Positions 1,286-20,757 of a stretch of 22,480 bases of DNA are shown here, one piece after another. Below the pieces are notes generated by a model that had not been told where the DNA came from, did not search any database, and saw nothing but the letters and a program-made list of their open reading frames with translations. Origin of the DNA: Bacillales bacterium (GTDB taxonomy: Bacteria > Bacillota > Bacilli > JARBTR01); the NCBI GenBank assembly GCA_031554275.1, contig JAVBKB010000130.1:1-22480 (forward strand), in the 5' to 3' direction. How positions within the stretch are numbered: the stretch's first letter is position 1; each line of letters opens with the position of its first letter. The position numbers were made by a program, and so were the translations under genes.

Positions 1286-1402
1286 CCTAAGTACTCCTTT
1301 ACCCACAGGTATTATTTAATGATAGTGTTTTCCATAAGATAGTGTTTCCGTTTTCCGAGTATTGTATTTCCGAAAAGATTTCCATATCCAAACATTCTGG
1401 CA

Positions 1403-1436
1403 TGAAAAAGCCCACCCAGAAAAAGTGCTGGGTGGG
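1403..1436 (-). terminator. Rho-independent terminator for the recJ-apt transcript on the minus strand. It lies about 190 nt after the apt stop codon.
   Basis: The minus strand reads CCCACCCAG-cacttttt-CTGGGTGGG followed by CTTTTTCAT. This is a perfect 9-bp GC-rich stem followed by a T-run. Confidence 0.6.
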
Positions 1437-1627
1437 AGCTATGTTAATATTCCCGTCAAAAATCGAATAAAGTTGTGGCAAATTCCGATTCTCATCAACA
1501 TCGGAAAAAATGGTGGATTTCCGTCCCAAGTTTTTTCTTGTGGTGGACTTCCCATCTTGCGGATTTCTTTGTTTGCAATTCGGATCAAGGAAAAATTACC
1601 GATCACAACTATTTCAAACAGAAATCA

Positions 1628-2140
1628 TTAATACGCTGTCAATGTAAGAACTTCATATCCTTTTAATTTATCCATGCCTTTCAGGTAAGTTAGATCCACT
1701 AAGAAAGCAATACCCGCAACAATACCGCCGAGCTCTTCCACCAACTTAATAGTGGCTTCAATAGTTCCGCCAGTAGCTAATAAATCATCAGTAATAAGGA
1801 CTCTTTGACCAGGCTTAATTGCATCTTTGTGAATTGCTAAGGTTGCTTGCCCGTATTCTAGTTCATAAGATGTTTGGATAGTTTCACGCGGAAGTTTGCC
1901 TTCTTTTCGTACTGGAGCAAAACCAATACCCAACGCATAAGCGACTGGGCATCCGATGATGAAACCACGTGCTTCCGGACCTACAACAAGATCTATTTTT
2001 TTATCAATTGCGAAGATAACAATTTCGTCTGTTGCGAATTTATATGCTTCACCATTATCCATTAATGTAGTGATATCCTTAAAGCGAATACCAGGCTTTG
2101 GCCAATCTTCAACAATCGTAATGTACTTCTTCAAATCCAT
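1628..2140 (-). CDS. apt: Adenine phosphoribosyltransferase.
   Basis: The 170-aa product aligns with Apt over its full length ([21 protein letters not shown]...[26 protein letters not shown], the PRPP-binding motif). It lies 11 bp downstream of recJ, as in the conserved recJ-apt operon. Confidence 0.95.
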
Positions 2141-2151
2141 GTGACTTCCTC

Positions 2152-4548
2152 CTATGATTCAGTAGCATTCATGAGTGATCGAAAAAAATTCGTGAAATCT
2201 TTTTTTGAAGAAAATAATAATTGGTTTTCTAGTTCACTCTTTGCAAGTTGCGACGAGTAACTGGTTGATTCAACAAGATCTTTCTTGGCAACACCTTTCA
2301 CTAAGTTTACAATGCCGTTGTCTATTGTAACAAAACCTAATTCAAAAAACACTTTTAAAATAAATGAAATTGAATCTTTTTTCCAAAGGTTTCGCTTTGC
2401 CAAGTTTTCTGCATGAGCTTGGGCGTTGAATGAATGGTTTTGTGTAAGAAAGGCATACATCCATTTGAACTGATCACGAGTTGGCGGATTTACGAATAAT
2501 TCATCTTTTCTCTTTTTTAAAAATAAGTAGTAGCGAGAGTATTTTGCTTGCGCAAACATTTCTTGAATGAGTTGCTTGCTATTCGGAAAATCGACCAAAC
2601 ATAGGTTTTCTGCTATTTTTCCTGTAGAAAATGTCCCTCGATAGACTTCAACCTCACTATGGATTGAAGGAGGAAGTTGCTGGATGCTCTCTTCATTGAA
2701 AACGACAATTCTTCGTTCGATCGGAATCAAGTTCAGATTGAATTCTGTCAGTGGTAAGCTTCGCCAATCAAAGATTTGCACATGATTACAGGAGATATCC
2801 TGTAAAGTCATTTGGGGAATCAGTTTATTGTTCCATTCATTTATCGAGATTCCCCCAACGATAGATAACTGATCGCTTTGAGAAATCTGTTCAACAATGT
2901 GCCCTTGACCAAATCCAATAAGGTCGATAACACCGGTATCATCAGTAAGTTGTGCTTTGAAATGGTTAAAGTCGGCGCCAACTTTTTTGGATGAAAGCAT
3001 TTCCACTTTTTCAACCAATATTCTTGGTCGAGGATTTCCCCTCCCAAAAGGGGCCAATCGATCTAACAGCTGAATTGTTTTTACAGTGATATCGGCAAGT
3101 TTCACTTTGCAATCAATCGCGATTTTTGATACAAAAATGGCTGGATCGACATTGATCTTTGCTTCATGATTGATCGCTTCACGAAAGGCATCAAGGTTTT
3201 CCATTCGAAGCGAAAGTCCTGCTGCCATTGGGTGTCCCCCGAACCTCGACAGCAGCTTTTCCTGCTCCAAAAGTTGTTGATACAAATTGTAGCCTTCAAC
3301 ACTTCTTGCTGAACCTTTTGCCTCGTTTTTTGCTTCGTCCAAACTGATAACAATCGCAGGATGTGCATATCTTTCAACTAATTTAGACGCTACAATCCCA
3401 ACGACTCCAGAATTCCAGCCGCTTTTGCCAATCACAATAATTGGCCACTGACTAATTGGGAAGGTTTCTTCCACCATAGCAATTGCTTCTTCAGTAATAG
3501 TTAGCACAAGTTCCTGTCTTTGACGATTAATTGCATCTAAATCAGTTGCAATCTCCACAGCTTTTTCTAGGGAGTCTGACATTAATAGCTCAACTGCTTT
3601 ATCAGCGCTTCCCAGTCGTCCAGCTGCATTCAGTCGTGGTGCAAAGCCAAATGCAATCGTTTCCTCATTAATTGTATCCAAAGGGATACCAGCAATCTGT
3701 GCTAAAGCTTGTATCGCAGGGAGTTGGCTGGTTTTCATACATTCCAGTCCTTTGGTAACTATCAGTCGGTTTTCACCATGTAATTCAACAAGATCAGCAA
3801 TAGTTCCTATGGCAGCTAATGTAACACAGTCAGGAAGTGCTTCACCCAAAAGAGCATGAGACAATTTCAAAGCAACACCGGCTCCGCATAGCTCTTGATA
3901 TGGGTAGTTGTCATCGAGTTTAGGATGTAGGATCGAATAGGCGTTTGGCAATTCCGCACCCATTTGGTGATGGTCTGTGATGACAACATCCATACCTAGT
4001 GTCGCTGCTTTGTTCATTTCTTCAATTGCAGCAACACCTGTATCAACTGTGATGAGCAAAGTAACACCCTGATGATGTAATTTCTCTATCGCAGATATGT
4101 TTGGACCATAACCCTCAGAGAAACGATTCGGAATATAGTATGAAATGGTCGAAGCAGAACCCATTGGTTCTATCAAAGCTTTTCCTGAAGCATCTTCCGG
4201 TAGATTAACTGCTGAAGGCATCGCAGTAAGCAACTGGAATGTACGCAATAATATCGCTGTGCTTGTCACCCCGTCAGCATCATAATCACCGAAGATTGCA
4301 ATACGCTCGCCTTTTGCTATTGCATTTTTGATGCGCTCAACCGCAGTCGCCATTTGACTGAATTGAAATGGATCATGAAAATTTTGTTTGTGTACATTGA
4401 GAAATTGTTTTGCTTCATTCAGATTAACAATTCCGCGATTAATAAGCAGAGCCGCAATCAGCTCTGGGATTTTCAATTTATCTACAAACTGCTGCACTAA
4501 TTCAGCATTTGGGTTCATCACTTGCCATTCTGACTTGGCTTGGAGCAT
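2152..4548 (-). CDS. recJ: Single-stranded-DNA-specific 5'-3' exonuclease RecJ. This is the long Firmicutes form with a C-terminal extension.
   Basis: DHH family motifs are present ([30 protein letters not shown]) and the DHHA1 region is intact. The 798-aa length matches Bacillales RecJ. A GAGGTG RBS sits upstream of the ATG at 4548. Confidence 0.95.
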
Positions 4549-4965
4549 TTTGTCACCTCAATCACAGTCTATTATACAATAGGTGTCAGGATAAATAGAG
4601 CATTTTATGGATGATCTATACTGCGCATCCCGAATCCCAACTTGGTAAAAAGAGTTTCTTCCCATAAACTCGCAAGTCACTTTGTCGTTATAAAATCATC
4701 AATTGAAGATGTTGGCTCTCTGCTAGGGGTGAAGGTAAATGATATGCAGCTCGTCTTACTGCTTCGCGACAGATTTCTCTTCGATGGACCAATATCTTAT
4801 TCAAATATCCATAAAAGAACCTACTGATAAACAATCTGATTATACGTATTTAGGAAGACTACAACAAAGTATCCCTGTTGAAGCGCTTTCATCTCAGGAA
4901 CAAACATTTCTGCAAAGACATCAAGAAAAAATCACTACTTAAATGTAGTGACAATTGTTACACTT

Positions 4966-5212
4966 AATCCTGATTACATATAAAGATAACGAAACAAACT
5001 AAACTATGCTACCCACAGAGATTGGATTCTTTCGTTATCTTAAAGCGGAATCAGGATACACAGTGCCGGCTTATGCAAATACTGCCGGATTAAAGAGAGC
5101 TTGTATCGCCATATTCTTCTTCAACATTATTGAGCTAAAACAATTCAACGTATTTCGCTTGTTCCAATTTTATCGAGAGTTTTAAGTTGCATTTCTAACG
5201 ACAATTAGGATA
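4966..5212. repeat. Structured intergenic repeat element, copy B. It has a long imperfect hairpin (arms 4966-4994 and 5030-5058) and a conserved about 40-bp terminal box (5169-5212). It is homologous to the element at 20436-20757.
   Basis: The hairpin consists of a 9-bp helix (AATCCTGAT / ATCAGGATA) and a 12-bp helix (AAGATAACGAAA / TTTCGTTATCTT), separated by an internal loop and closed by a 35-nt terminal loop. The box TTATCGAGAGTTTTAAGTTGCATTTCTAACGACAATTAGGATA is about 90% identical to 20716-20757, and its core matches the reverse complement of 20441-20469. Confidence 0.6.
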
Positions 5213-5217
5213 AGCCC

Positions 5218-6369
5218 TCACCAATTTCTTTCTGCAAAATATCTTTCCATGCGATTCAGGCCTTCAATGAGTGTCTCCATGGCACAAGCATAGGAGACCC
5301 TGAAAAATCCCTCGCCATATTGAGTGAAGGCCGAACCAGGAACGACTGCTACGCCAGCCTTCTTCACTAACTCAAGCGCGAAATCCCATGATGATTGTTT
5401 ACATTGCACAGGGAGTTTTACAAAAAAGTAAAAGGCACCGTCAGGGAATGTCGTTTCTAGTCCCATCTTGGTTAGGCGATCATAGACATATTTTCTCCGC
5501 TCTCTGTAGGCTGTTCGCATTGGAAGAGCATCATCAAACCCTGTTGTCAAGGCAGCAAGAGCGGCATGCTGTGAAATTGAGGAGGCACAGGTCACATTGT
5601 ATTGATGAACTTTAAGCATATGCTGACAAATAGTAGCTGGAGCGAGTAGAAACCCTATTCGCCAACCAGTCATGGCATGAGACTTCGATAATCCGTTGAT
5701 AACAATTGTTTGTTCTTTTAACAAATTAGCAATCGAGAAATGATTGTCAGCAAGCTCACTATAGATTTCATCTGCAAGTACAAATATCTTGTGATCTCCT
5801 AGCACCACTGCAATTTCCTCTAGTTCGGATTGGCTAAGTGAGACACCAGTTGGATTTGATGGGTAGGGCAAGATTATACACTTCGTCTTCTCTGAAATCT
5901 TATTGCGAATTTGTGTTGCGGTAACCTTGAAAGCGGTTTCTCTTGTGTCTAGGTAAACTGCTTTTGCACCACAAATTTGGATGATTGGCTCATATCCAGG
6001 ATAAATGGGGCATGGAAGTAGCACCTCATCGCCAGGCTGTAAAATAGTTCTTAATGCAACGTCAATTGCTTCGCTTGCGCCAGCAGTTACAATGATCTCG
6101 CTATCTGCAAGATAGTTCAAATTGTACTTTTTTTCAAAATAAACACATGCTGCCTTTCGAAGTTCCAGCAGACCTGCATTCATTGTATATGTGGTGTGAT
6201 TTCCTGTTATTGCTCCAACTGCTGTTGTTTTGATATGCTCAGGGGTATTAAAGTCAGGCTGGCCAATGGTAAATGAAATGACATCTGGGATTCCAGCAAT
6301 CATATTAAAGAACTGGCGTATGCCAGAAATCTGAATATCTTTTACTAAAGGGTTTATACGGTCTTCCAT
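5218..6369 (-). CDS. PLP-dependent class I/II aminotransferase (aspartate / PatA-type, possibly N-acetyl-LL-diaminopimelate aminotransferase).
   Basis: The N terminus M..RINPLVKDIQISGIRQF and the Schiff-base lysine in NGLSKSHAMTGWRIG are both typical of this class. The start was set at MEDRINP (ATG at 6369), which lies 4 nt after the TGA stop of the upstream ORF and so indicates an operon. The longer track ORF overlaps that upstream gene. Confidence 0.8.
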   Translation of the reverse strand: MEDRINPLVKDIQISGIRQFFNMIAGIPDVISFTIGQPDFNTPEHIKTTAVGAITGNHTTYTMNAGLLELRKAACVYFEKKYNLNYLADSEIIVTAGASEAIDVALRTILQPGDEVLLPCPIYPGYEPIIQICGAKAVYLDTRETAFKVTATQIRNKISEKTKCIILPYPSNPTGVSLSQSELEEIAVVLGDHKIFVLADEIYSELADNHFSIANLLKEQTIVINGLSKSHAMTGWRIGFLLAPATICQHMLKVHQYNVTCASSISQHAALAALTTGFDDALPMRTAYRERRKYVYDRLTKMGLETTFPDGAFYFFVKLPVQCKQSSWDFALELVKKAGVAVVPGSAFTQYGEGFFRVSYACAMETLIEGLNRMERYFAERNW

Positions 6370-6373
6370 GAGA

Positions 6374-6823
6374 TCACTCTTTCTTAGGTCTTTTTTGAAT
6401 CGATTGCGGGGTTTCTCCAAGTCTGGTAAAGACCGGTTGAACGTATTTTCGTGTTGCACTAGGAATTGTTTCTTTAATCCCAGTATACTTCTGCAAAATA
6501 CTTTTGGCCGTTCGTAAGTTCATCTTTGAGGGCGGGTTTCGAAAGCCTTCGATAGCAAGTCCGAGGTGAGTAAGTGTCTTGAAGTCTTCTTTCGCAGGGT
6601 TGATGTGAAATTGATAACTACCACACTCAACTAAGACTGATGAAGTTTGCTGCACATTTTTCGGGTTATTTGAAAAGTGCAAGCCAATTTTCTTTGCAAT
6701 ACCCATACTAATCATCTTTTCGAGGCTTGCGCCTTTCAATTGGTAGAGGAACTTTGGATTCTGGGCAGTTTTTGCATGTTTATTCACTGTAAAAATTGCT
6801 TCAGATAATTCTTGTACATTCAT
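6374..6823 (-). CDS. Hypothetical 149-aa protein co-transcribed with the aminotransferase. It may belong to the YkyB-like family.
   Basis: A clean ORF whose stop is 4 nt from the aminotransferase start, downstream of a near-consensus promoter. No enzymatic motif was recognised. The family assignment is a guess from neighbourhood memory only. Confidence 0.45.
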   Translation of the reverse strand: MNVQELSEAIFTVNKHAKTAQNPKFLYQLKGASLEKMISMGIAKKIGLHFSNNPKNVQQTSSVLVECGSYQFHINPAKEDFKTLTHLGLAIEGFRNPPSKMNLRTAKSILQKYTGIKETIPSATRKYVQPVFTRLGETPQSIQKRPKKE

Positions 6824-6855
6824 AAAACCAGTCCAGTTAGCTTATTTTTATAAGA

Positions 6856-6883
6856 ATTATAGCATTTTTCCGACCTTTCACAA
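6856..6883 (-). promoter_or_regulatory. Sigma-A-type promoter for the 6823←5218 operon on the minus strand: TTGTGA-16 nt-TGcTATAAT.
   Basis: Reverse complement of 6856-6883. The -35 is TTGTGA (6878-6883), the spacer is 16 nt, and the extended -10 is TGcTATAAT (6856-6864). It sits about 30 nt upstream of the ATG at 6823. Confidence 0.5.
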
Positions 6884-6920
6884 AAATATTTCAAGTAACC
6901 AATAAATAATGATTCCTTTA

Positions 6921-6949
6921 TTGTCAACTCTTTGATAATATTTATATAT
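6921..6949 (+). promoter_or_regulatory. Candidate sigma-A promoter for the LEA-like gene: TTGTCA-17-ATATAT/TATATA.
   Basis: TTGTCA lies at 6921-6926, and an AT-rich -10 hexamer 17-18 nt downstream. It is divergent from the aminotransferase operon promoter. Confidence 0.35.
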
Positions 6950-6974
6950 GAAATACTATTAGGGAGTGAAAAAA

Positions 6975-7322
6975 ATGTTTGAAAAGATTAAGAGCTTTTT
7001 CAAAAGCAAAACGCAGGATGCAAAAGAATTTGCTGCTAAAGCAGATGATATTCTTGAAGAAAAATTTGACGGCGTCAAAGAAAAGCTTGGCGATGCTAAG
7101 GATGTTGTTGCTGATAAGCTTGGCGATGCCAAAGATGTTATGGCAGACAAGTTTGGTGATGCAAAAGAATTTGCAGCTGACAAACTCGGCGATGCAAAAG
7201 ACGTTGTTGTAGATAAATTTGGCGATGCAAAAGAATTTGCAGCTGACAAAATAGGAGACCTTAAAGACAAAGTAACTGGTAAAGACAACGAAAATGATGC
7301 AACTGATAAAGAAAAACTGTAA
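6975..7322 (+). CDS. Small hydrophilic 11-mer-repeat protein, LEA group-3 / GsiB / CsbD-like, a putative general-stress or desiccation protein.
   Basis: The protein carries about six tandem copies of the 11-residue unit DK(L/F)GDAK(D/E)(V/F)(V/A)A. It is very rich in Lys, Asp and Ala, with no hydrophobic core. The ATG at 6975 has an AGGGAG RBS 9 nt upstream. Confidence 0.6.
   Translation: MFEKIKSFFKSKTQDAKEFAAKADDILEEKFDGVKEKLGDAKDVVADKLGDAKDVMADKFGDAKEFAADKLGDAKDVVVDKFGDAKEFAADKIGDLKDKVTGKDNENDATDKEKL
7083..7274 (+). repeat. Tandem 33-bp coding repeat, about 5.8 copies. It underlies the 11-residue protein repeat in the LEA-like gene.
   Basis: Consecutive units of aagcttggcgatgctaaggatgttgttgctgat, aagcttggcgatgccaaagatgttatggcagac, aagtttggtgatgcaaaagaatttgcagctgac and so on. 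Units 3 and 5 are identical. Confidence 0.85.
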
Positions 7323-7346
7323 TTAATGAAGGAGAGAACTACTTAA

Positions 7347-7991
7347 ATGGCAAATATTTTGGGTGACTTAATTGCTAAGCTTTTTAAATCAAAGATAGTA
7401 CAAGATCAGGTTGGCAACTTGGTACAAGATAAGATTGGAGATTTAGTTGGTGGACTTTTTGGTGGAGGCAGTACTGCTGCTACTACCTCTGGTAAGAAAC
7501 CAGCTAAGAAAAAATCCGAAGGTTTCAGTTTGACTGACCTCTTCACATCAGGTTTTATGAAGGAGAACACAAGCTTTCCTTCAATAGGAGATTTCTTAGG
7601 TGCTGGCAATCTTAAAGCTACTTCGCTTGATGAAATTTCCTCACTTCCACAAAACCAAATGCATGATTTGGCGGCAAATGGTACTAAGTTTGATGGTTGG
7701 AGAGAGATGCTTGGTGCAGCTGTTGCAGAAGCAATCACAGGAAAGAACAAAAACGTTGATCCATCTTCACTAGACTTAAGTAAGTTAATGAACGCGGATT
7801 TCATGAAGAGTAACACAAAGTTCGCTTCGCTTACTGATTTCATGCAAGCAGCGGGTGTAGATTCCGAAGATGCATTAAAAGCAAGTTCAAGTAAAAAAGT
7901 AGATGAACTTGTGTCTGAGGATGATTCTAATGGATTCGGGAACTGGAAAGACTTACTTGGATCAGCTGTAACATCATTCTTAAAAAAATAA
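7347..7991 (+). CDS. Hypothetical 214-aa soluble protein with an internal duplication; the family was not recognised.
   Basis: Two duplicated motifs are present: F(S/A)SLTD(L/F)..(S/A)G paired with F.KxNT.F, and FDGWREMLGAAVAEAI paired with FGNWKDLLGSAVTSFL. The gene is 24 nt downstream of the LEA-like gene and shares a bidirectional terminator. Confidence 0.5.
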   Translation: MANILGDLIAKLFKSKIVQDQVGNLVQDKIGDLVGGLFGGGSTAATTSGKKPAKKKSEGFSLTDLFTSGFMKENTSFPSIGDFLGAGNLKATSLDEISSLPQNQMHDLAANGTKFDGWREMLGAAVAEAITGKNKNVDPSSLDLSKLMNADFMKSNTKFASLTDFMQAAGVDSEDALKASSSKKVDELVSEDDSNGFGNWKDLLGSAVTSFLKK

Positions 7992-8004
7992 ACTGAGATT
8001 TCAG

Positions 8005-8044
8005 TAAAAAAATGCTAGGTTATGATGATAACCTAGCATTTTTG
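8005..8044. terminator. Bidirectional rho-independent terminator between convergent genes.
   Basis: AAAAAAA-ATGCTAGGTTAT-gatg-ATAACCTAGCAT-TTTTTG. This is a perfect 12-bp stem flanked by an A-run and a T-run. Confidence 0.8.
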
Positions 8045-8050
8045 TGTGTA

Positions 8051-9028
8051 TTACATTTTCTGTCCACAGCTCACACAGAATTTCGCTTCTATTGTATTTG
8101 CTGCACCACATGAAGCGCAGAAGTGGCCCTTCGGTTTGACTACTTGACCACATTCAGGGCAGAACTTCGAATCTGCAGGGATTTTGGCATCGCAACTTGG
8201 ACATTCAATTGATTTGTCAGTATCCCCATCAAAGAGCTTGTTTGCCATTTTCATGCCAGCAGCCATACCTAGCGCATCTGACATACTTGAGTTGCCTTTG
8301 CCCATTGCATCTGCTGCACTCAAGTTTTGATATTTGTCAACATCCTTTACCATGCTGAATGCTGCTGCTTTATTAATTTTTTCTTGAATTTCTTCTGGAT
8401 AATTGAAGCTTTGAATATTGAAGTCAAGGATTGAGATACCAATTTTCCGCATTTCGAAATCCAGGTCCGTTTTAATTCCTTCTGCTATATCGAATGCGCT
8501 GGCTTGGAGACGGAACATATCTTTTCCCTCTTGTAAGATCCATTTCATCAGATACTTATCCAATACTGCGACGATTCGACCGCGTAGTTCTTCAACAGTA
8601 TACATTTTCTTTACACCAGCAATTTTGTCAATTAGGGTGATGTAGTCAGAAACTTTGAAAATCAATGTGCCAAAAGCTCTAACAGGTAGTCCGCCTGGTA
8701 ATTCCTCAGAAGGAATGTTAATGGCGTTTTGTGTACCCCATTTCAACTCGATTTCTTTGTTATTTACAAAAAGTACTTCAGCTCGTAAACCGCTATTAAA
8801 TCCGAATCGAAAGCCCTTTAATGTGCTTAGAAAGGGGATGATATCTGATTGCAATTCATAAGTGCCTTCCTTTTCGAAAATACCTTCAACGCGACCATTA
8901 TACATAAATACAGCATCTTGTCCTGCTTTAAGGATAACGCGAGAGCCTTTCTCAAGCTCATCGTCATTCCATTTCCAGAAGATCACATCTTCCCGGAATT
9001 CTTGCCATTCCACAACATCTGCAAACAT
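8051..9028 (-). CDS. SPFH / Band_7_1-family protein with a C-terminal double zinc ribbon (B. subtilis YdjI-like).
   Basis: The N-terminal domain architecture matches the Band_7_1 (virion-core-like SPFH) family. The C terminus carries CPSCDAKIP...CPECG and CASCGAAN...CVSCG. It is the last gene of the pspA-led operon. The start was chosen at MFADVVEW (ATG at 9028) with a GAAAGGCGG RBS. Confidence 0.7.
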   Translation of the reverse strand: MFADVVEWQEFREDVIFWKWNDDELEKGSRVILKAGQDAVFMYNGRVEGIFEKEGTYELQSDIIPFLSTLKGFRFGFNSGLRAEVLFVNNKEIELKWGTQNAINIPSEELPGGLPVRAFGTLIFKVSDYITLIDKIAGVKKMYTVEELRGRIVAVLDKYLMKWILQEGKDMFRLQASAFDIAEGIKTDLDFEMRKIGISILDFNIQSFNYPEEIQEKINKAAAFSMVKDVDKYQNLSAADAMGKGNSSMSDALGMAAGMKMANKLFDGDTDKSIECPSCDAKIPADSKFCPECGQVVKPKGHFCASCGAANTIEAKFCVSCGQKM

Positions 9029-9097
9029 TTTTTTACCGCCTTTCAAATGATTTCACTAATTGTAACGTTTAAATACAATCGTATCGAAAACTTACTG

Positions 9098-10219
9098 CTA
9101 AAGACTATTCAAAAATTCTTGTCCTGCCTCAGTTCCAGTCAAGAAGTAAATTATGATAAATAATAGAACTAACCCAAGAACAGTTAAGATCGCAATCTTG
9201 ACTGGACTATATGGGTATCGGCCAGCAATTTCACCATTTTCACCATTGATTACATAGCTGTAAATTTTATTTTTGAACATAAAACCAGAACTCCATACTG
9301 GAAACAACACATGTTTAAACCGAACATTAGAATAGGTTGTATCTAGTGAAATCCCCTGTACAACGTCGTATTGAGCCAATACTTGACTTTCAACGTCTCT
9401 AACCAGGTAGTTGTACATCTCATGCTGAGCCATTTCAAATCCTGGTTGTGGCAGCATCGCATACTTTTCAGCATAGAAGCCCGACAAGTATGCAGATGAA
9501 AAGGGCACAAGGTGACCAGTATTAAATTCGTCGACTTGAGTTACTAGCGATGCATTCTTACCGCCACCATTTACAAGCACATCATCAAAAGACCGGGAAA
9601 CAGAACCACTTACATTGTACCAACGAACTCTTTGCTCTTGTCTTCTGTTACCTCTACCGTCACTGACTGTAACATAATAGACTTCTCCACCCATTGCAGC
9701 ATAACGGCTGTTTGTATCGGCATCATAAGTCCAATAAGGAAGGTAAATAGGCTTTAGCAGATCTTCTTGGTACATTTTTTTAAGAATATTAGGTGCTAGC
9801 CATCTCCGACCGATCCAATTTTTAAAAATTTCAGCCGAACGCTCTTTGGTAACCTTAAATGGGATAATTCCCTCAGGCCGAATGCCAGCATCCTGCTTCA
9901 CTTCCAAAATATTAGATGAGCCACAAAAAGCACAAGATGCTGTTGTATCATTCTTGGCAATTGATAATTCTGCACCACAAGAACTGCATTTGACAGTGTG
10001 AATCTGTTCTCCCCATTCAACATCTGCTTTTGAAAGTTCTATTTCTGTGAAATCATACTCTCTTATTGTGCTTTTCTGATTGGGCAGCTTCTCTAATACA
10101 TAGTTGCAATTTGGGCAGAGCATATGCTGTGACGCAATATCAAACTCGAGAATACTGTTACACTTTGGGCAATTATAAACGATTTGCTCTTTCGATACAG
10201 CCATTTCTTGAACAGCCAA
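9098..10219 (-). CDS. Zinc-ribbon membrane-anchored protein (YdjG/YdjH-like), encoded in the PspA operon.
   Basis: The N terminus has two CxxC...CxxC zinc ribbons (CPKCNSIL...CPNCNYVL and CSSCGAEL...CAFCGSSN). These are followed by a domain of about 250 aa and a C-terminal TM helix (IAILTVLGLVLLFIIIYFL). A TTG start is preceded by a GGAG RBS. Confidence 0.55.
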   Translation of the reverse strand: MAVQEMAVSKEQIVYNCPKCNSILEFDIASQHMLCPNCNYVLEKLPNQKSTIREYDFTEIELSKADVEWGEQIHTVKCSSCGAELSIAKNDTTASCAFCGSSNILEVKQDAGIRPEGIIPFKVTKERSAEIFKNWIGRRWLAPNILKKMYQEDLLKPIYLPYWTYDADTNSRYAAMGGEVYYVTVSDGRGNRRQEQRVRWYNVSGSVSRSFDDVLVNGGGKNASLVTQVDEFNTGHLVPFSSAYLSGFYAEKYAMLPQPGFEMAQHEMYNYLVRDVESQVLAQYDVVQGISLDTTYSNVRFKHVLFPVWSSGFMFKNKIYSYVINGENGEIAGRYPYSPVKIAILTVLGLVLLFIIIYFLTGTEAGQEFLNSL

Positions 10220-10302
10220 ATGAATTCACTCCATTGCTTTGTGAATGCTTTGATTCATTATTTTGATAGAATTTGATTCTGTTGTTTCTGTACTTTATCA
10301 CA

Positions 10303-10332
10303 AATCAGGCTGCGCCTTGCGCAGCCTGATTG
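10303..10332 (-). promoter_or_regulatory. Perfect 13-bp stem-loop between pspA and the downstream operon genes, possibly a partial terminator or attenuator.
   Basis: AATCAGGCTGCGC-cttg-GCGCAGCCTGATT. No strong U-tract follows on the minus strand. Its position is analogous to the readthrough terminator after liaH/pspA in other Firmicutes. Confidence 0.4.
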
Positions 10333-10346
10333 TTTGATTGAAAATA

Positions 10347-11045
10347 TTATTTCTTTGCTTTAGCTTTCATAGCAGCAAGCTCATCTTCAACTGATGGCGC
10401 AGATGGAATATCATCATATTTATCTTCTAGATCATCCAATTTCTCTTCATAAGAAAGCTCATTGTCTGTAACAGAATTCAACTCTGCCATAGCATTTGCT
10501 TTGTCTAGCATTTTGTTTGCTTTCTCTTCCATCTCACCGAATTTGTTCATGCTACCTTTTGATTGATCAATACTTGAGCCTAACTTGTTGATATGCTCTT
10601 GAGTTTTGGCGATATTCATTTTGGCTTTAATATTATCACGACGAGAATCTAGCTCACCGATTTGGTCTACTAATTTATCATGCATTGCACGCATTTTTGT
10701 TGAATTAGCAGTCGCTGAAACAAGTACTTGTTGCAAGCTTGCTTGTTGTCCAACCAAATGACTTTTCTTTGTAAGGAAGTCTCTCGCATCTGAATCATTA
10801 CCAGCTGCAACAGCACGTTCAGCATAGCTTTGTAGTTTGTTTACTTCAGCTTGATTCTCATCGAATTCACGCTGTGCACGCATTTGCTCTGCCATAATAG
10901 TTGCTGTTTCTGATTTGACTTCATTGAGGTCGTCTTGCATATCTCTTAATGCCTCATCAATCATTTTCTCTGGGTCTTCAGCCTTGTCTAGCAATGAGTT
11001 GATGTTAGCTTCCATGATGTCTTTAAATCTTGATAAAATACTCAA
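10347..11045 (-). CDS. pspA: Phage-shock protein A / IM30 family (PspA, LiaH/YdjF-like).
   Basis: The N terminus MSILSRFKDIMEANINSLLDKAEDPEKMIDEALRDMQ is the PspA signature. The remaining roughly 220 aa are coiled-coil. AGGAGGAAA provides the RBS. Confidence 0.9.
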   Translation of the reverse strand: MSILSRFKDIMEANINSLLDKAEDPEKMIDEALRDMQDDLNEVKSETATIMAEQMRAQREFDENQAEVNKLQSYAERAVAAGNDSDARDFLTKKSHLVGQQASLQQVLVSATANSTKMRAMHDKLVDQIGELDSRRDNIKAKMNIAKTQEHINKLGSSIDQSKGSMNKFGEMEEKANKMLDKANAMAELNSVTDNELSYEEKLDDLEDKYDDIPSAPSVEDELAAMKAKAKK

Positions 11046-11118
11046 TTGGGGTTTCCTCCTAAGTAGCAGAAATATCTACTACAATGATTTTTCAGCTAGA
11101 ATAACTAGCCACGCTATA

Positions 11119-11147
11119 ATTATATTAATTTTGGGGCAAAATTTCAA
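11119..11147 (-). promoter_or_regulatory. Near-consensus sigma-A promoter for pspA: TTGAAA-17-TATAAT.
   Basis: On the minus strand the -35 is TTGAAA (11142-11147), the spacer is 17 nt, and the -10 is TATAAT (11119-11124). The predicted 5'UTR is about 65 nt. Confidence 0.55.
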
Positions 11148-11394
11148 TGATTGTTTTTTAAATTTTCTAGTATAAGAGAATTTAATAATTATTATTTATT
11201 GGAATCTATTTGAAAAATAGTCACTTTTCTAATGCAACCATTGAGCAAATTTTACAAAAAAAATAAACGGACTTAAGCAGCTTACTTAAATAATGAAATT
11301 CCCTTGCAATCAACTAACATGAGGATGATAAAAAAACCTAATGCGCAACAAATTCCAGGAGGGTTTTGTTTTCTTCGCAAAAGGTCTTAAGGTG

Positions 11395-11679
11395 TTATCT
11401 TTGATAAATATTAATATTTTCTGTGACACCGTATGGCATTGGGTACCCGCTAATAGGATAACTTGGATACGGGGCGACAGGCGGATAGGGGGCAACAGGT
11501 GGATACGCTGGATATGGTTGAAATTGGGGGTATGGCATTGGGTAGGGATAGGGACGATTGAATAACAGACCCCCAATCGCGAGTCCACCGAGAAATGGTA
11601 GAAACGGGATGAATCTTTCGTCTTCTCTATAAATATTGCCATTGATTCCATTAGGGTTTTGAAAATAATCGGGATACAT
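11395..11679 (-). CDS. Small membrane protein of 94 aa with a Pro/Tyr-rich repeat tail (YP/PYP repeats); function unknown.
   Basis: A strong RBS is present (AAATGGAGG 7 nt before the ATG). One TM segment is predicted (FIPFLPFLGGLAIGGLLF). The C-terminal tail reads RPYPYPMPYPQFQPYPAYPPVAPYPPVAPYPSYP. The overlapping 131-aa ORF in another frame lacks an RBS. Confidence 0.55.
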   Translation of the reverse strand: MYPDYFQNPNGINGNIYREDERFIPFLPFLGGLAIGGLLFNRPYPYPMPYPQFQPYPAYPPVAPYPPVAPYPSYPISGYPMPYGVTENINIYQR

Positions 11680-11716
11680 TGTAGACCTCCATTTTGCTTT
11701 TTCAATAATGAGAAGG

Positions 11717-11746
11717 TTGCACTGAAGCCTTCATTATGGGTAAAAT
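11717..11746 (+). promoter_or_regulatory. Candidate sigma-A promoter for dapH: TTGCAC-18-TAAAAT.
   Basis: Based on hexamer match and spacing only. Confidence 0.3.
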
Positions 11747-11818
11747 GTCTTCAAGCTATATTATGGGATAACCACTCACTCTGAGCCTGTTCAAATCGAA
11801 TATTGGGGGAAAAGTCAA

Positions 11819-12529
11819 ATGAAGAAACTTACTGCAGAAGAAATTATATCGTTTATCGGTAATAGTAAAAAATCAACACCCGTTAAAGTCTATGTAAAAG
11901 GAGACCTCGATCAAATTGAGTTCGGAAATACCGTTCAAGCTTTTGTGGAGTCAAAGTCAGGCGTTCTTTTTGGAGAATGGGAAGCTATTGAAAAGTTTTT
12001 AGAAGAAAATAAAGCAAATATTTCGGACTATGTATTGGAATGTGATCGCCGCAATTCAGCTATTCCATTATTTGATAAGAAATATGCAAACGCTCGTATC
12101 GAGCCAGGTGCAATCATTCGTGACCAAGTGGAAATTGGGGATCAGGCTATTATCATGATGGGTGCTGTAATCAATATAGGTGCGACAGTTGGTGCGAAGA
12201 CGATGATTGATATGAATGCGGTTCTTGGTGGACGTGCAGAAGTTGGTGCCAATTGCCATATTGGTGCAGGAGCAGTGTTGGCAGGAGTCGTTGAACCGCC
12301 ATCTGCAAAACCAGTAATCGTTGAAGACGGTGTTTTGGTAGGGGCAAATGCAGTTGTATTGGAAGGTGTCCGTGTTGGAGCTGGTTCAGTTGTAGCTGCT
12401 GGTGCCATTGTTGTTCAAGATGTAGCGCCAAATACTGTGGTTGCAGGCGTACCAGCAAGGATGATCAAAACAATTGATCAAGTAGACAAATCGAAAATTG
12501 AAATGAAAGATGAATTACGTAACTTGTAA
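11819..12529 (+). CDS. dapH: 2,3,4,5-tetrahydropyridine-2,6-dicarboxylate N-acetyltransferase.
   Basis: The N terminus [22 protein letters not shown] is characteristic of DapH (YkuQ). A left-handed beta-helix hexapeptide-repeat region follows. The 236-aa length is as expected. Confidence 0.9.
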
Positions 12530-12679
12530 CAGGCAGTTAATTTCTTAGCATCATAATAAGGGGTTTCCACAGGAATTGCTGTTTCTAGCGAAGAAAATTA
12601 CTGTTGTTAGAAATTATGTTTACCTAAATACTTCAATGTGTCATACTATTATTATCTTATTGAGAAAGGAACACAGAAA

Positions 12680-13192
12680 ATGAATAAAATGATGAAAAAG
12701 GTTTTACTTGGATCAATCATGGCTATTTTAGTCCTAGGATTAGTAGGTTGTGGTGGAGGAGATCAAACAATTACAAGTAAGGATAAGAAATTCGAGGTTA
12801 AAGTTCCAAAAGAATGGGAACTAGTTGAAGACGGAGTAGGCGAAGACGGACTAGTTGTCGCTGATGCACAATCAGAAAGTGATGCTACTCAAATGGTTGT
12901 AATTATGCCAATCGGTGAACCGGACATGTTTGAAGGTGACCTTGAAGATTCATTTGATGAAATTTTTGGATCAGAAAGTGGTACAGATACGAAAAAACTT
13001 TCTACAGACAAAATTTCTGGCTTTGAGGCGATTACAGTTGAAATAAAATCTGATGACGAAGGTACATATATTGCAGCTCTTATCAAAGGCGAAAAGAAAG
13101 TATATATGGTGAATACTGGAGCAAAAGAGAGTAAAGACTACGATCAAAAGAAATTTGAGAAGATTGCAAAAAGTGTTAAGATCAAAGAGTAA
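12680..13192 (+). CDS. Lipoprotein of unknown function.
   Basis: The signal peptide MNKMMKKVLLGSIMAILVLGLVGC carries an LVGC lipobox. The mature part is acidic. The start was chosen at the ATG with a GAAAGGAA RBS rather than the longer track ORF. Confidence 0.65.
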   Translation: MNKMMKKVLLGSIMAILVLGLVGCGGGDQTITSKDKKFEVKVPKEWELVEDGVGEDGLVVADAQSESDATQMVVIMPIGEPDMFEGDLEDSFDEIFGSESGTDTKKLSTDKISGFEAITVEIKSDDEGTYIAALIKGEKKVYMVNTGAKESKDYDQKKFEKIAKSVKIKE

Positions 13193-13208
13193 TGATAATC
13201 TAATTATG

Positions 13209-13245
13209 ACATCTCCAATGTAGACTACATTGGAGATGTTTTTTC
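13209..13245 (+). terminator. Rho-independent terminator after the lipoprotein gene.
   Basis: ACATCTCCAATGTAG / CTACATTGGAGATGT forms a palindromic stem followed by TTTTTT. Confidence 0.75.
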
Positions 13246-13278
13246 GTGGTGACAACTTGTGCTAAGAAACAGTTTCGA

Positions 13279-13617
13279 CTAGTTCTTTGCAGACATATTT
13301 ACACCCAATATGCCGCCCATCATTGCCGTTAGGACATAACTTGCGTAGTAAATAATTTGTTTTATTGAGAACAAAGTATCTAAACCCAAATACTGATACA
13401 GGAAAATGATTAACGTGTACAACAAGCCAGTCGCACCGCCAAGCATCCAACCGGATTTTTTCCCTCTTCCACCAGAAACAAAACCGCCTATGAATAGGGA
13501 AATGAATGAGACAAATAAGATTATGTAACCAATGGTGGTCTCACTTGTATCTGTGAAACGCAGAATCAGTGAGAAGATCAAACTTGATGTAGCTGCAAGC
13601 ACAAAGATCACTAACAA
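13279..13617 (-). CDS. Small polytopic membrane protein downstream of the spoVB-like gene (YrzE/YrbG-like position). The start codon is uncertain.
   Basis: Three to four TM helices are predicted. The only canonical start is the TTG at 13617, which has no RBS. A strong RBS (GAAAGAGGGGA) lies 60 nt upstream, positioned before an in-frame ATC codon (13656-13654). Confidence 0.5.
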   Translation of the reverse strand: MLVIFVLAATSSLIFSLILRFTDTSETTIGYIILFVSFISLFIGGFVSGGRGKKSGWMLGGATGLLYTLIIFLYQYLGLDTLFSIKQIIYYASYVLTAMMGGILGVNMSAKN

Positions 13618-13797
13618 ACCATAAAGAATTGCTGTACTAATTTTTTTCGTTTCGATGGTAAATCCCCTCTTTCATCTAACTGGACACGCTAATCCAACTA
13701 TATGTACAACAGATTAGAAAAAGACCAGGTTGTATAGAATTTTCCAAGCTGTTGAACTTTTTCCACACAGCAAAATTCACAATTTCACACCAAAATC

Positions 13798-15360
13798 TCA
13801 TCCAATAAAACTCCTTGAAATCAATTTACCAAAGAGCGGAATGCGCTGCACTTCAGGCTTCGTGACAACACCAGTAATCACCAACAATATGAGAAACAGT
13901 ACAACCATGAGGGATGCAGTCAGAAGCACATTCTGTACCATTCCAAGTGCTGCGAATATCTTCAAGTTAAGCAGATGTCCTGTGAACCCTGTAATCAAAA
14001 TAATCACACCTGTAACAACATATTCTCGCAGATAAATTGGCACATGGATTTTGCGGGAAATTGAAACGAAATGTAGCCAAGTAATCAGGATTATTCCAAC
14101 CCCAAGCGAGAGCGTAACCCCCATGATACCAAAGCGAGGTTGCGTTGCCAGAATCAGTATTAATACTGTTTTCACAGCTGCTCCAATGAAGCTATTCACC
14201 ATTGCAGCAGTTGCCATATTCATTGCTTGCAGTGCTGCTTGAAGCGGTCCTTGGTAAAAGAAAAACAGGAAGAAAGGCGCCAGAAATTTAACATAATGGG
14301 CAGCATGATTATTGCCATACATCAAGGTCATTAATGGGTCTGCTAACACATAGATGATGACAACGGAAAGAGCACCACTGATAAAGGTGAAGCGTAACGA
14401 TTGATGTAGCTGGTACTCCACTAGCCTGAATTTCTTTTTCGCATAGGCTTCACTAATAGCAGGAATGAGTGAAGTACCCAATGAAGTTGTGATAAATGAT
14501 GGAAGCATGAGGAGTGGCAAGGCATATCCCGTTAACTCTCCATATAGCTTTGTAGAACTAACAGTTGTGATGCCTGCGATCGCTAAACTCTGTGCGACAA
14601 CAATCGGCTCAAGGAACCAAGCTATTGAGCCAATCATCCGACTGCCAGTAGTAGGGATGGCAATTGTCATCAGCTCTTGTAGTGTTTTACGTCCCTTGAC
14701 CATATGAGAGAAAAATTGTTTGCGTAAGCGAAAATTTTTTCGAAGTTTAAAACGTGCCAGTAGATACAATAATGAAACTAGCTCTCCTATTATAGAAGCC
14801 ACAATGGCACCAGCAGTGGCATACTCAATGCCATAAGGTAAAAACTTCTTCGTGAGGTAAGCGATTAAAGCAATTCGAACAGATTGCTCTAATATCATTG
14901 AAAATGCAAATGGGTTCATCTGCTGTTTCCCTTGGAAGTAGCCCCGTAACACGGCAGAAACTGCTGTGATCGGAATAATTGGTGCCATAGCAAGGAGTGG
15001 GTAATAAACGCGGTGATCTGTGAACAATGTTTGAGAAATGAACTTTGCACCTAATATTAATAAAGGTGTGAAAATCATTGAAAGAAGAATGGTTACTGCC
15101 AGTGAAACAACAAGTATTGATTTCACTTTCCTTGAATCATCTCTCGCCGTAGCTTCCGCAACAAATTTGGAGATGGCAACAGGTAGTCCAATTTGTGTGA
15201 TCGCAATCACTAGAAATAGGGTTGGTGAGGCCATCATGTATAAACCAACGCCCTCTTCACCAACAAACCGTGCTAACACGATCCGATTAATGAATCCAAG
15301 AATTCTAGTGATGAATCCTGCAATGAGTAAAATGATTGTTCCTTTAAGAAATCTTGACAT
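13798..15360 (-). CDS. spoVB: MOP-superfamily flippase, SpoVB/MurJ-like (stage V sporulation protein B, or a polysaccharide/lipid II flippase homologue).
   Basis: The 520-aa product has about 14 TM segments. The N terminus LKGTIILLIAGFITRILGFINRIVLARFVGEEGVGLYMMASPT is very close to B. subtilis SpoVB as recalled from memory (unchecked; a MurJ/YtgP-type paralogue cannot be excluded). The gene is divergent from comN-secDF, as in the B. subtilis locus. Confidence 0.6.
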   Translation of the reverse strand: MSRFLKGTIILLIAGFITRILGFINRIVLARFVGEEGVGLYMMASPTLFLVIAITQIGLPVAISKFVAEATARDDSRKVKSILVVSLAVTILLSMIFTPLLILGAKFISQTLFTDHRVYYPLLAMAPIIPITAVSAVLRGYFQGKQQMNPFAFSMILEQSVRIALIAYLTKKFLPYGIEYATAGAIVASIIGELVSLLYLLARFKLRKNFRLRKQFFSHMVKGRKTLQELMTIAIPTTGSRMIGSIAWFLEPIVVAQSLAIAGITTVSSTKLYGELTGYALPLLMLPSFITTSLGTSLIPAISEAYAKKKFRLVEYQLHQSLRFTFISGALSVVIIYVLADPLMTLMYGNNHAAHYVKFLAPFFLFFFYQGPLQAALQAMNMATAAMVNSFIGAAVKTVLILILATQPRFGIMGVTLSLGVGIILITWLHFVSISRKIHVPIYLREYVVTGVIILITGFTGHLLNLKIFAALGMVQNVLLTASLMVVLFLILLVITGVVTKPEVQRIPLFGKLISRSFIG

Positions 15361-15541
15361 ATTAAATTACCAACCTTTTCAATCTATCAACAATCCAGTA
15401 CAATAGAAATGATACTTGATTGTTTGACTCTTTTTTCTTAAGCGAGTTATTTGTCTACATAACTAAAGGTAGCTTTATAAAAGATATGCACTCAACAGAC
15501 AAGCTTATGATTTTTCAGTAACTATTATTTCTTTAGTTTTT

Positions 15542-15570
15542 TTTGCGAAAAAAAAATTGAGAATGTAGAA
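15542..15570 (+). promoter_or_regulatory. Candidate sigma-A promoter for comN-secDF: TTGCGA-17-TAGAAT.
   Basis: The -35 is at 15542-15547 and the -10 at 15565-15570, about 20 nt upstream of the comN ATG. Confidence 0.4.
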
Positions 15571-15590
15571 TGTGAAGGGTAGGAGTACTT

Positions 15591-15884: not shown

Positions 15885-15954
15885 TTTTTTACTAGGGATA
15901 AGTATTATAATGTATTTTATTGAAGATGGAAGTTTTGAGAGGAGCCATAAGTAA

Positions 15955-18213: not shown

Positions 18214-18252
18214 AAACTTCTAACAAAACACAATTTTAAAATTAATAATTGA

Positions 18253-18290: not shown

Positions 18291-18332
18291 AAGAAAAAAC
18301 TTTTTGAAAAAATTTCTTAATTGGGGTGCCGT

Positions 18333-20435: not shown

Positions 20436-20757
20436 GCTTTATCCTAATTGTCGATAGAAATGCAACTTATCCTGATTACCGATTAAGATAGCGAATGCTT
20501 TGTGGTAATTTTCCATCTCGCTTTGTTAAAAAAGTGCATAAATATCTAGATATTCGCGCATTTTTTGCCGCGCGAGATGAAAAAATTCCGGACAAATCAT
20601 TCACTATTTTAATCGGTAATCAGGATTAAAACTCGCTAAGATCCCAAATACTTCGTCATAATTTCCTAGGATAGTCCCGCTATCCGTCGTAAATTATTCC
20701 TCGTCTTTGAAAATCTTATCGGAGTTTTAAGTTGTATTTTAACGACAATTAGGATTA
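20436..20757. repeat. Structured intergenic repeat element, copy A (MITE-like). It carries 29-bp terminal inverted boxes (20441-20469 and 20727-20755), a nested 31-bp inverted repeat (20467-20498 and 20598-20628), a 14-bp perfect palindrome and a GC-stem.
   Basis: ATCCTAATTGTCGATAGAAATGCAACTTA (20441-20469) is the reverse complement of TAAGTTGTATTTTAACGACAATTAGGAT (20728-20755), allowing for 2-3 mismatches. The inner arms TTATCCTGATTACCGATTAAGATAGCGAATGC and CATTCACTATTTTAATCGGTAATCAGGATTA pair at 28 of 31 positions. AATATCTAGATATT lies at 20541-20554. Confidence 0.65.

What the first reader, a model, noticed from the sequence alone, without database searches (positions are those of the whole stretch)
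4948..5216. Second copy of the structured repeat immediately upstream of recJ, abutting the aminotransferase stop
The 669-bp gap between the recJ start (4548) and the aminotransferase stop (5218) contains a homologous element.

The about 40-bp box TTATCGAGAGTTTTAAGTTGCATTTCTAACGACAATTAGGATA (5169-5212) is roughly 90% identical to 20716-20757.

Its core differs from the reverse complement of 20441-20469 by a single mismatch.

The arm AATCCTGATTACATATAAAGATAACGAAAC is related to the copy-A inner repeat and pairs with 5030-5058, giving 9-bp and 12-bp helices.

A 16-bp quasi-palindrome, GTGACAATTGTTACAC (4948-4963), sits just 5' of the hairpin and shares the ACAATT core of the box.

Copy B lacks the left inverted box, so it looks like a truncated or decayed copy.

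The remaining 400 bp (4560-4960) have no convincing ORF and could be a remnant of the gene lost between secDF and recJ, by analogy with B. subtilis yrvD.
Basis: seen in the sequence. Interest (0 to 1): 0.55.

Follow-up and report, generated by a model that had tools for sequence, protein, structure and literature searches.

The report
Nested palindromic mobile-element relics (MITE-like)
The repeat between recJ and the aminotransferase gene is real, and it is most likely the relic of two small non-coding "jumping" DNA palindromes, a common kind of bacterial repeat from a family not seen before; the idea that the DNA beside it is a dead gene is not supported.

Summary
It occurs seven times in the window, only in these two spacers.

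Copy A (20439-20757) is a nested pair of end-to-end palindromes:
- A 156-bp type II element (20470-20625) sits between TTA/TTA inside the left arm of a 154-bp type I element, itself between TTA/TTA.
- Deleting type II plus one TTA rebuilds a 46-nt terminal repeat and a single clean hairpin.

Copy B, the finding, is an 89-bp type II element (4968-5056, flanks TAA/TAC), 108 unrelated nt, then a lone right end of type I (5165-5210). That end lies 7 nt from the aminotransferase stop codon.

Only the termini are conserved between A and B. I found no transposase gene, Rfam match, or copy in any collection searched.

I read these as MITE-like relics moved in trans into TWA sites (confidence 0.6). The rest of the source genome was not available, so copy number is unknown.

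The pseudogene idea for 4560-4960 found no support. In all comparator Bacillales the order is secDF-recJ-apt-relA. Here recJ-apt is inverted and relocated, and both new junction spacers carry the element.

The parts
4968..5056 (.). Copy B, type II element: an 89-bp end-to-end palindrome with termini TCCTGATTAC... / ...GGAATCAGGA.
   Evidence: Inverted repeat I2. Weight-matrix scores of 27.1 and 26.7 bits for the two ends. The DNA fold is one hairpin with z = -6.3. The two halves are 71% alike.
4965..4967 (.). TAA triplet flanking the left end of type II in copy B. Its partner is TAC at 5057-5059. This is a possible decayed 3-bp target duplication.
   Evidence: Read. It matches 2 of 3 positions as a direct repeat.
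5057..5059 (.). TAC triplet flanking the right end of type II in copy B.
   Evidence: Read.
5060..5164 (.). Spacer with no detectable similarity to the corresponding part of copy A. It contains a small GCCGGC...GCCGG stem at 5066-5089.
   Evidence: Local alignment against 20629-20712 scores 11, against 8.8 +/- 1.6 in shuffles; 64 of 500 shuffles reach it.
5165..5210 (-). Copy B, lone right terminal repeat of type I (46 nt, tip at 5210).
   Evidence: Identical to the reverse complement of 20439-20469 but for 1 mismatch in 31 nt. 43 of 52 aligned columns match the right end of copy A. Weight-matrix score 27.4 bits.
5211..5213 (.). TAA triplet outside the type I tip. Four nucleotides separate it from the aminotransferase stop codon (5218-5220).
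   Evidence: Read; ORF end.
4931..4952 (-). Terminator-like stem-loop plus T-run on the minus strand, just beyond the element as read from the aminotransferase gene.
   Evidence: 8 pairs, followed by TTTTTCTTGA. The stem is also seen in the fold.
4568..4578 (-). recJ promoter-like block TGTATAATAGA (TATAAT at 4571-4576), shared with relatives L053 and L054.
   Evidence: Sequence comparison.
20442..20754 (.). Copy A, type I element. It has 154 bp of its own, interrupted by type II, and is flanked by TTA (20439-20441) and TTA (20755-20757).
   Evidence: Removing 20470-20628 rebuilds a 46-nt left terminal repeat that matches the right one. The rebuilt element folds as one end-to-end hairpin with z = -9.3.
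20470..20625 (.). Copy A, type II element: a 156-bp palindrome flanked by TTA (20467-20469) and TTA (20626-20628), inserted in the left arm of type I.
   Evidence: Inverted repeat I1. Halves 79% alike. DNA fold z = -9.6. Exactly one TTA is present at the matching point of the uninterrupted right arm (CAACTTAAAAC).

Best explanation
The finding is one of two loci carrying relics of a family of short, non-coding, whole-length palindromic mobile elements (MITE-like).

**Two subfamilies share the terminus TCCTRATT:**
- Type I: about 154 bp, with 46-nt terminal inverted repeats.
- Type II: 89-156 bp.

**What each locus holds.** In copy A, a type II element inserted into a TTA inside the left terminal repeat of a type I element and duplicated that TTA. 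The type I element itself lies between two TTAs. Copy B holds a shorter type II element and, 108 nt away, a lone right end of type I next to the aminotransferase stop codon.

**Inferred mechanism.** A transposase encoded elsewhere in the genome, not in this window, binds the conserved ~28-nt terminal unit. It cuts at the TCC tips and inserts at AT-rich TWA sites with a 3-nt stagger.

**Present-day role.** The copies are probably passive. Copy B would be carried in the aminotransferase 3' untranslated region, up to the stem-loop at 4931-4952. Copy A lies between the upstream gene's terminator and the relA promoter.

**Shown versus inferred.**
- Shown: the repeats, the nested architecture, the triplet flanks, the lack of coding capacity, and the absence from the orthologous spacers of relatives.
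- Inferred: transposition itself, the trans-acting enzyme, and transcription.
For: - **Terminal units.** There are seven, only in the two spacers, scoring 22-38 bits; the best score elsewhere in the window or in shuffles is 17 or less.
- **Palindromes.** All three elements fold as single end-to-end hairpins: z = -9.6, -9.3 and -6.3 as DNA, and z = -12.3 for all of copy A as RNA.
- **Nested insertion.** The left arm of type I stops matching its right arm at CAACTTA. It resumes at AAACTCGCTAAGAT exactly after the type II element plus one TTA.
- **Triplet flanks read better as direct than as inverted repeats.** They are TTA/TTA twice and TAA/TAC once.
- **No coding capacity.** The element ORFs are all under 60 aa. 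The 59-aa copy-B ORF that was scanned has no Pfam hit. No transposase-like ORF turned up among the window ORFs annotated.
- **Absent from relatives.** The elements are missing from the orthologous spacers and from 257 kb of related loci.
- **Fits the published definition of a MITE.** That definition is terminal inverted repeats, flanking direct repeats, no transposase, under 200-400 bp, and a long stem-loop (PMC3184786).
- **A 3-bp duplication at AT-rich targets** is reported for IS5 and PIF/Harbinger elements (PMC4122938).
Against: - Only two loci are known, both in one 22-kb contig.
- The unit patterns gave no hit in the genome, metagenome, viral, plasmid or phage collections. Multi-copy dispersal is therefore unproven and no parent insertion sequence is known.
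- A 3-nt duplication is weak evidence on its own, and TWA could be part of the terminus.
- The interiors of A and B are unalignable while the termini are 80-97% alike. Simple neutral decay of two copies does not predict that. It hints at selection on the termini, or at different subfamilies.
- No empty site is available. The relatives are too distant (68% SecDF identity) and the region is rearranged.
Confidence: 0.6

Rival explanations
1. The units are binding sites for a host (or domesticated) DNA-binding protein. The -> -> <- <- array would be a cis-regulatory or architectural site near relA, recJ and the aminotransferase gene.
For: Only the ~28-nt units are conserved between A and B, while everything between them has diverged to background. 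The outer unit of copy A ends 15-23 nt upstream of the predicted relA -35 hexamers. A 9-mer, TTATCCTGA, also lies just upstream of the recJ TATAAT.
Against: Copy B lies downstream of one gene and about 420 bp from recJ, so there is no consistent position relative to promoters. The relatives manage relA and recJ without any such array. The nested structure with a duplicated TTA is what insertion predicts, not what operator evolution predicts. The extra 9-mer is expected by chance about once per window.
Confidence: 0.13
2. The element is a structured RNA (small RNA, or a 3'/5' untranslated-region element) whose hairpins are the functional part.
For: The predicted folds are very stable. Two positions differ between A and B yet agree in both arms of each hairpin. 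A minus-strand terminator-like hairpin follows copy B. The Bacillus cereus repeat bcr1 is transcribed (PMC3184786).
Against: No Rfam family reaches its threshold. The sub-threshold hits are plant microRNA hairpin models, meaning generic long hairpins. No promoter-like site lies inside or in front of either copy. The transcript context differs: copy A sits after a terminator and before a promoter, and copy B sits in a 3' region. Stability and arm co-variation follow automatically from any inverted repeat.
Confidence: 0.08
3. The repeats are recombination scars or substrates of the rearrangement that moved recJ-apt, rather than transposed elements. Alternatively, the junctions are assembly chimeras formed at repeats.
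For: Both new junction spacers (recJ|aminotransferase and channel gene|relA) carry the element. The block between them, 5214-20438, is bracketed by the most similar pair of units in inverted orientation, 30 of 31 nt identical. The window is a whole metagenome-assembled contig.
Against: The longest exact runs seen when comparing the printed unit sequences of the two loci are 15-16 nt, shorter than typical assembly k-mers. Each hairpin has copy-specific features shared by its own two arms, so neither is a chimera. The third junction, 1307-1627, has no unit. A scar model does not explain the nested insertion with a duplicated TTA.
Confidence: 0.1

Closest known systems
bcr1 and other group A repeats of the Bacillus cereus group
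   Same: About 155 bp, non-coding and intergenic in a spore-forming Bacillales. Flanked by short direct repeats, with a cruciform-like fold and the character of a non-autonomous mobile element (PMC3184786).
   Different: bcr1 has 5-bp direct repeats and two independent stem-loops, and is restricted to the B. cereus group. Here there are 3-nt TWA flanks, one end-to-end hairpin per element, and an unrelated organism.
Whole-length palindromic enterobacterial and Neisseria MITEs (ERIC/IRU, YPAL, Correia/NEMIS)
   Same: 100-170 bp imperfect palindromes that fold into one long hairpin, lie in spacers or 3' untranslated regions, and are linked to local genome plasticity (PMC3184786).
   Different: Different phylum and different termini. 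Correia elements duplicate TA (from my own knowledge, not tested here). No promoter or IHF-site features were found in this element.
IS5-family / PIF-Harbinger-type transposons and their Tourist-like MITEs
   Same: A 3-bp target duplication at AT-rich sites (PMC4122938). TTA/TAA is the classic Tourist duplication (from my own knowledge).
   Different: No IS5-type transposase or parent element was found. Bacterial IS5 ends usually start with G (from my own knowledge), whereas these start with TCC. This is a lead, not an assignment.
REP / REPIN elements moved by RAYT transposases
   Same: Pairs of inverted units forming a long hairpin, non-coding and intergenic.
   Different: REP units are 20-40 nt, are themselves palindromic, and carry a GTAG or CGTC tag (PMC3733652, abstract seen). 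The units here are not self-complementary and carry no such tag.

Membership tests
MITE (non-autonomous terminal-inverted-repeat element) | Terminal inverted repeats | tested here: met
   Type I in copy A has 46-nt repeats, about 87% alike once the nested element is removed. Type II has 35 nt at 91% in copy A and 42 nt at 76% in copy B. Type I in copy B has only its right end.
MITE (non-autonomous terminal-inverted-repeat element) | Flanking direct repeats (target-site duplication) | tested here: inconclusive
   The flanks are TTA/TTA around both elements of copy A and TAA/TAC around type II of copy B. The best case is the nested insertion, where the uninterrupted arm has one TTA and the interrupted arm has two. 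Three nucleotides is short, and TWA could belong to the terminus.
MITE (non-autonomous terminal-inverted-repeat element) | No transposase gene; small size (<200-400 bp) | tested here: met
   The elements are 89, 154 and 156 bp. Only ORFs under 60 aa overlap them, and the one scanned has no Pfam match.
MITE (non-autonomous terminal-inverted-repeat element) | Folds into a long stem-loop | tested here: met
   z = -9.6, -9.3 and -6.3 as DNA; z = -12.3 for copy A as RNA.
MITE (non-autonomous terminal-inverted-repeat element) | Many dispersed copies in the genome | not testable with these tools
   Two loci in 22 kb. The rest of the metagenome-assembled genome is not in any searchable collection, and pattern scans found nothing.
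MITE (non-autonomous terminal-inverted-repeat element) | Presence/absence differences between related strains (empty sites) | tested here: inconclusive
   The elements are absent from the orthologous spacers of the closest genomes. Those genomes share only 68% SecDF identity and have a different gene order.
MITE (non-autonomous terminal-inverted-repeat element) | A parent insertion sequence with matching termini | tested here: not met
   None in the window. blastn against plasmids and phages found nothing relevant. Genome and metagenome pattern scans were empty. The searches needed near-exact matches, so a diverged parent could have been missed.
bcr1 (B. cereus group repeat) | 5-bp flanking direct repeats and a two-stem cruciform | tested here: not met
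   3-nt flanks and one end-to-end hairpin per element, against the description in PMC3184786.
REP / REPIN | A short unit that is itself palindromic and carries a GTAG/CGTC tag | tested here: not met
   The aligned units are not self-complementary and lack the tag.
Any Rfam RNA family | Covariance-model score at or above the gathering threshold | tested here: not met
   No hit at gathering thresholds. The best sub-threshold hits are microRNA hairpin models at 20-37 bits, against thresholds of 100-140.
Pseudogene remnant in 4560-4960 (yrvD-like or other) | Detectable protein-level similarity in any frame | tested here: not met

The most novel reading that the evidence does not exclude
The terminal units are kept by selection, not by recent copying. 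On this reading, a transposase or a domesticated descendant still binds them. By pairing ends that belong to different copies, it produced the relocation and inversion of recJ-apt. The 15-kb block 5214-20438 is bracketed by the two most similar units, with their tips facing it. The elements would then be active drivers of gene-order change in an otherwise highly conserved secDF-recJ-apt-relA neighbourhood, rather than passive relics.
Probability: 0.15. Interest if true: 0.5.

Novelty: new member of a known kind. Interest (0 to 1): 0.27.

Why it matters
Small palindromic repeats are routine in bacterial genomes, so the main value is correct annotation. This is neither a riboswitch-like RNA nor a dead gene.

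Three points are of modest interest:
- The nested insertion gives direct sequence evidence of past mobility in an uncultured Bacillales lineage whose SecDF has no relative closer than 68%.
- The family has an unusual 3-nt TWA duplication.
- The elements sit in both new junction spacers of a rearrangement that broke the secDF-recJ-apt-relA order, which was conserved in all nine comparator Bacillales loci examined.

If a full genome showed many copies at other breakpoints, the family would help explain the genome shuffling in this lineage.

Tried and rejected
**Searches for further copies, all empty**
- Box pattern in genome contigs, metagenome contigs and viral contigs.
- Arm pattern in metagenome contigs and viral contigs.
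- blastn of copy A against plasmids and phages gave only a 34-nt chance hit.
- A weight-matrix scan of 257 kb of related loci found nothing.
- A literature search for the sequence strings found only primers.

**Locating the source genome**
- Exact-protein look-ups for window genes failed.
- Cluster look-up gave no accession or name.

**RNA families**
- Rfam gave nothing at gathering thresholds, and only generic hairpin models in permissive mode.

**Pseudogene test of 4549-4966**
- Six-frame reading, Pfam at E<=10 and two large protein searches all found nothing usable.
- tblastx against relatives found nothing.

**Ideas considered from memory and dropped**
- DnaA boxes: TTATCCTRA mismatches the two critical positions.
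- Spo0A boxes: only 6 of 7 positions in one subtype.
- Bacillus replication terminator sites: only CTAA is shared.
- Tn7/Mu-type ends: no TG tips.
- Retron RNA: no reverse transcriptase gene.
- Invertase sites: the bracketed block is 15 kb of housekeeping genes.

**Decayed left type I end in copy B (4937-4967).** The alignment is no better than shuffles, so it is not claimed.

**"Empty site" argument.** I tried to argue that the aminotransferase terminator lay right after the stop codon before insertion. The relatives do not show a conserved arrangement there, so I dropped it.

Full report
**Context**

The window is a complete 22,480-bp contig from an NCBI metagenome-assembled genome. Its SecDF is in the protein collection at 100% identity on a contig of exactly that length. 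The organism is an uncultured spore-forming Bacillales.
- The nearest SecDF proteins are 68% identical, from three other Bacillales MAGs. Pradoshia follows at 62%.
- The genes annotated include apt, recJ, aminotransferase A, YkyB, PspA, DapH-like, SpoVB, SecDF and RelA.

**Observation**

- The 31-nt box at 5183-5213 recurs in inverted orientation at 20439-20469 with one mismatch. None of 100 shuffles gave even two matches.
- The 44-nt version aligns to 20716-20757 at 40 of 44 columns.
- The hairpin at 4967-5057 (42-nt arms, 76% complementary) and its similarity to the arms of the large copy-A hairpin (80-85%) are confirmed.
- The fold shows the 9-bp and 12-bp helices.
- No further copy of the box or the arm occurs in the window.

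**Anatomy**

When the seven terminal segments are lined up, the "box" and the "hairpin arm" turn out to be two subtypes of one unit, (T-W-A)TCCTRATTNYCGWTWRAAAT.
- Type I reads TCCTAATTGTCGWTAGAAATGCAAC.
- Type II reads TCCTGATTACCGATTAAGATAGCG.
- A weight matrix built from them scores the seven sites at 22-38 bits. Nothing else in the window, and no shuffle, exceeds 17 bits.

In copy A the units are arranged -> -> <- <-. The key result concerns the left arm of type I.
- It matches the right arm up to CAACTTA (20469) and then stops.
- It resumes with AAACTCGCTAAGAT at 20629.
- That point is exactly after the type II element (20470-20625) plus one TTA.
- The uninterrupted right arm reads CAACTTAAAACTCCGATAAGAT, with a single TTA.

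Copy A is therefore a 156-bp type II palindrome inserted, with a TTA duplication, into the left terminal repeat of a 154-bp type I palindrome. The type I element is itself bounded by TTA (20439-20441) and TTA (20755-20757).

The folds agree with this:

| Element | Fold | z-score |
|---|---|---|
| Type II, copy A | single end-to-end DNA hairpin | -9.6 |
| Type I, copy A, with type II removed | single end-to-end DNA hairpin | -9.3 |
| Type II, copy B | single end-to-end DNA hairpin | -6.3 |
| Whole of copy A | RNA fold | -12.3 |

The two halves of each copy-A element are 75-79% alike over their whole length.

Copy B, the finding, consists of:
- an 89-bp type II element (4968-5056) flanked by TAA and TAC;
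- 105 nt (5060-5164) with no similarity to copy A;
- a lone 46-nt right end of type I (5165-5210), followed by TAA and, four nucleotides later, the aminotransferase stop codon.

No left end of type I can be shown.

Between A and B only the terminal units are conserved.
- Type I ends are 83% alike over about 50 nt and 30 of 31 in the outer part.
- Type II ends are about 80-85% alike over 26 nt.
- The interiors align no better than shuffled sequence.

**What it is not**
- No Rfam family matches at its gathering threshold. In permissive mode the only hits are plant microRNA precursor models, far below threshold, which is what any long hairpin gives.
- There are no tRNAs.
- No promoter-like site lies within or in front of either copy.
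- The copies sit in different transcriptional contexts. Copy A follows a predicted stem-loop with a T-rich tail after the upstream gene and precedes the relA promoter candidates at 20772-20809. Copy B lies between the aminotransferase stop and a minus-strand terminator-like hairpin at 4931-4952.
- The 4549-4966 stretch has two open frames of about 70 aa. They have no family, no homologue, and no tblastx trace in the relatives.
- The only conserved feature in that stretch is the recJ TATAAT block TGTATAATAGA (4568-4578, minus strand), shared with L053 and L054.

**Genomic setting**

All nine comparator loci that reach recJ keep the order spoVB(-), post-transcriptional regulator, secDF, recJ, apt, relA. 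These are three close MAG loci, a Logan contig, Rossellomorea, three Paenisporosarcina and Brevibacillus. The three closest also have the aminotransferase and ykyB upstream, as here.

In the window the order is apt(-) recJ(-) | copy B | aminotransferase(-) ... spoVB(-) ... secDF(+) channel gene(+) | copy A | relA(+).
- recJ-apt has therefore been inverted and moved to the far side of the aminotransferase gene.
- A CASTOR/POLLUX-type channel gene now lies where recJ-apt used to be. Its nearest homologues are at most 52% identical, and those that carry names come mainly from Clostridia MAGs.
- The elements lie in both new junction spacers.
- The 15-kb block between them is bracketed by the most similar pair of units, in inverted orientation (I3).

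This is suggestive of a role in the rearrangement, or of preferential insertion into remodelled spacers. It is not proven: the third junction (1307-1627) has no unit, and two inversions would be needed.

An assembly chimera is unlikely.
- The longest exact runs seen when comparing the unit sequences of the two loci are 15-16 nt.
- Each hairpin carries copy-specific features in both of its own arms.

**Explanation**

The best reading is a MITE-like family: non-coding palindromic elements moved in trans by a transposase that recognises the ~28-nt terminal unit and inserts at TWA with a 3-nt duplication.
- This fits the published definition of bacterial MITEs (PMC3184786).
- A 3-bp duplication at AT-rich targets is typical of IS5 and PIF/Harbinger transposases (PMC4122938). 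That is a lead, not an assignment.
- The nested insertion is the strongest evidence of past mobility.

The weak points are:
- only two loci are known;
- no parent element has been found;
- no copy turned up in any collection searched;
- the termini are conserved while the interiors are unrelated. This could mean different subfamilies, or selection on protein-binding sites.

I put the mobile-relic reading at 0.6, a host protein-binding array at 0.13, recombination scars or an assembly artefact at 0.10, and a functional RNA at 0.08.

**Verdict**

The repeat is real and correctly spotted. It is best filed as a new family of a well-known kind of element. Interest is low to moderate.

Noticed in passing
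window 1628-4548 versus 15955-22480; loci L001-L007 and L053-L057: recJ-apt is inverted and moved about 11 kb, to the far side of the aminotransferase gene. All nine comparator Bacillales loci that reach recJ keep secDF-recJ-apt-relA on one strand.
   Followed up: partly
window 18321-20198 (+): A 625-aa CASTOR/POLLUX-type channel with an RCK domain occupies the place of recJ-apt. It is absent from all comparator loci. Its nearest homologues are at most 52% identical, and the named ones come mainly from Clostridia MAGs, so it was probably acquired horizontally.
   Followed up: partly
window 22429-22431: An in-frame TGA in relA replaces a conserved Leu (relatives read EDDLYAAVGY), 49 nt from the contig end. 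Homology continues past it. It could be a nonsense mutation, a pseudogene or a sequencing error.
   Followed up: partly
window 6966-7322 (+): An ORF built from 33-nt tandem repeats that encode 11-residue KLGDAKD(V/F)xAD units.
   Followed up: no
window about 6959-11300: A block of about 4.4 kb lies between ykyB and the dapH-like gene. It holds the repeat protein, a 214-aa ORF, an SPFH/zinc-ribbon protein, a 373-aa zinc-ribbon protein and PspA. None of these window proteins has a match in loci L053 or L054, which have only a small ORF at that place.
   Followed up: no
window 4586-4594 (-): The 9-mer TTATCCTGA, identical to the start of a type II unit, lies just upstream of the recJ TATAAT. About one such match per window is expected by chance.
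   Followed up: no
L053:12300-12760: The closest relative, L053, has about 440 extra nucleotides in the secDF-recJ spacer compared with L054. The extra DNA has no similarity to the elements here, so this spacer is variable in the lineage.
   Followed up: partly
window 1307-1627: The spacer beside apt (the third rearrangement junction) holds a strong bidirectional terminator-like stem (about 1406-1440) and several GGATTTCC-like short repeats, but no terminal unit of the element.
   Followed up: no
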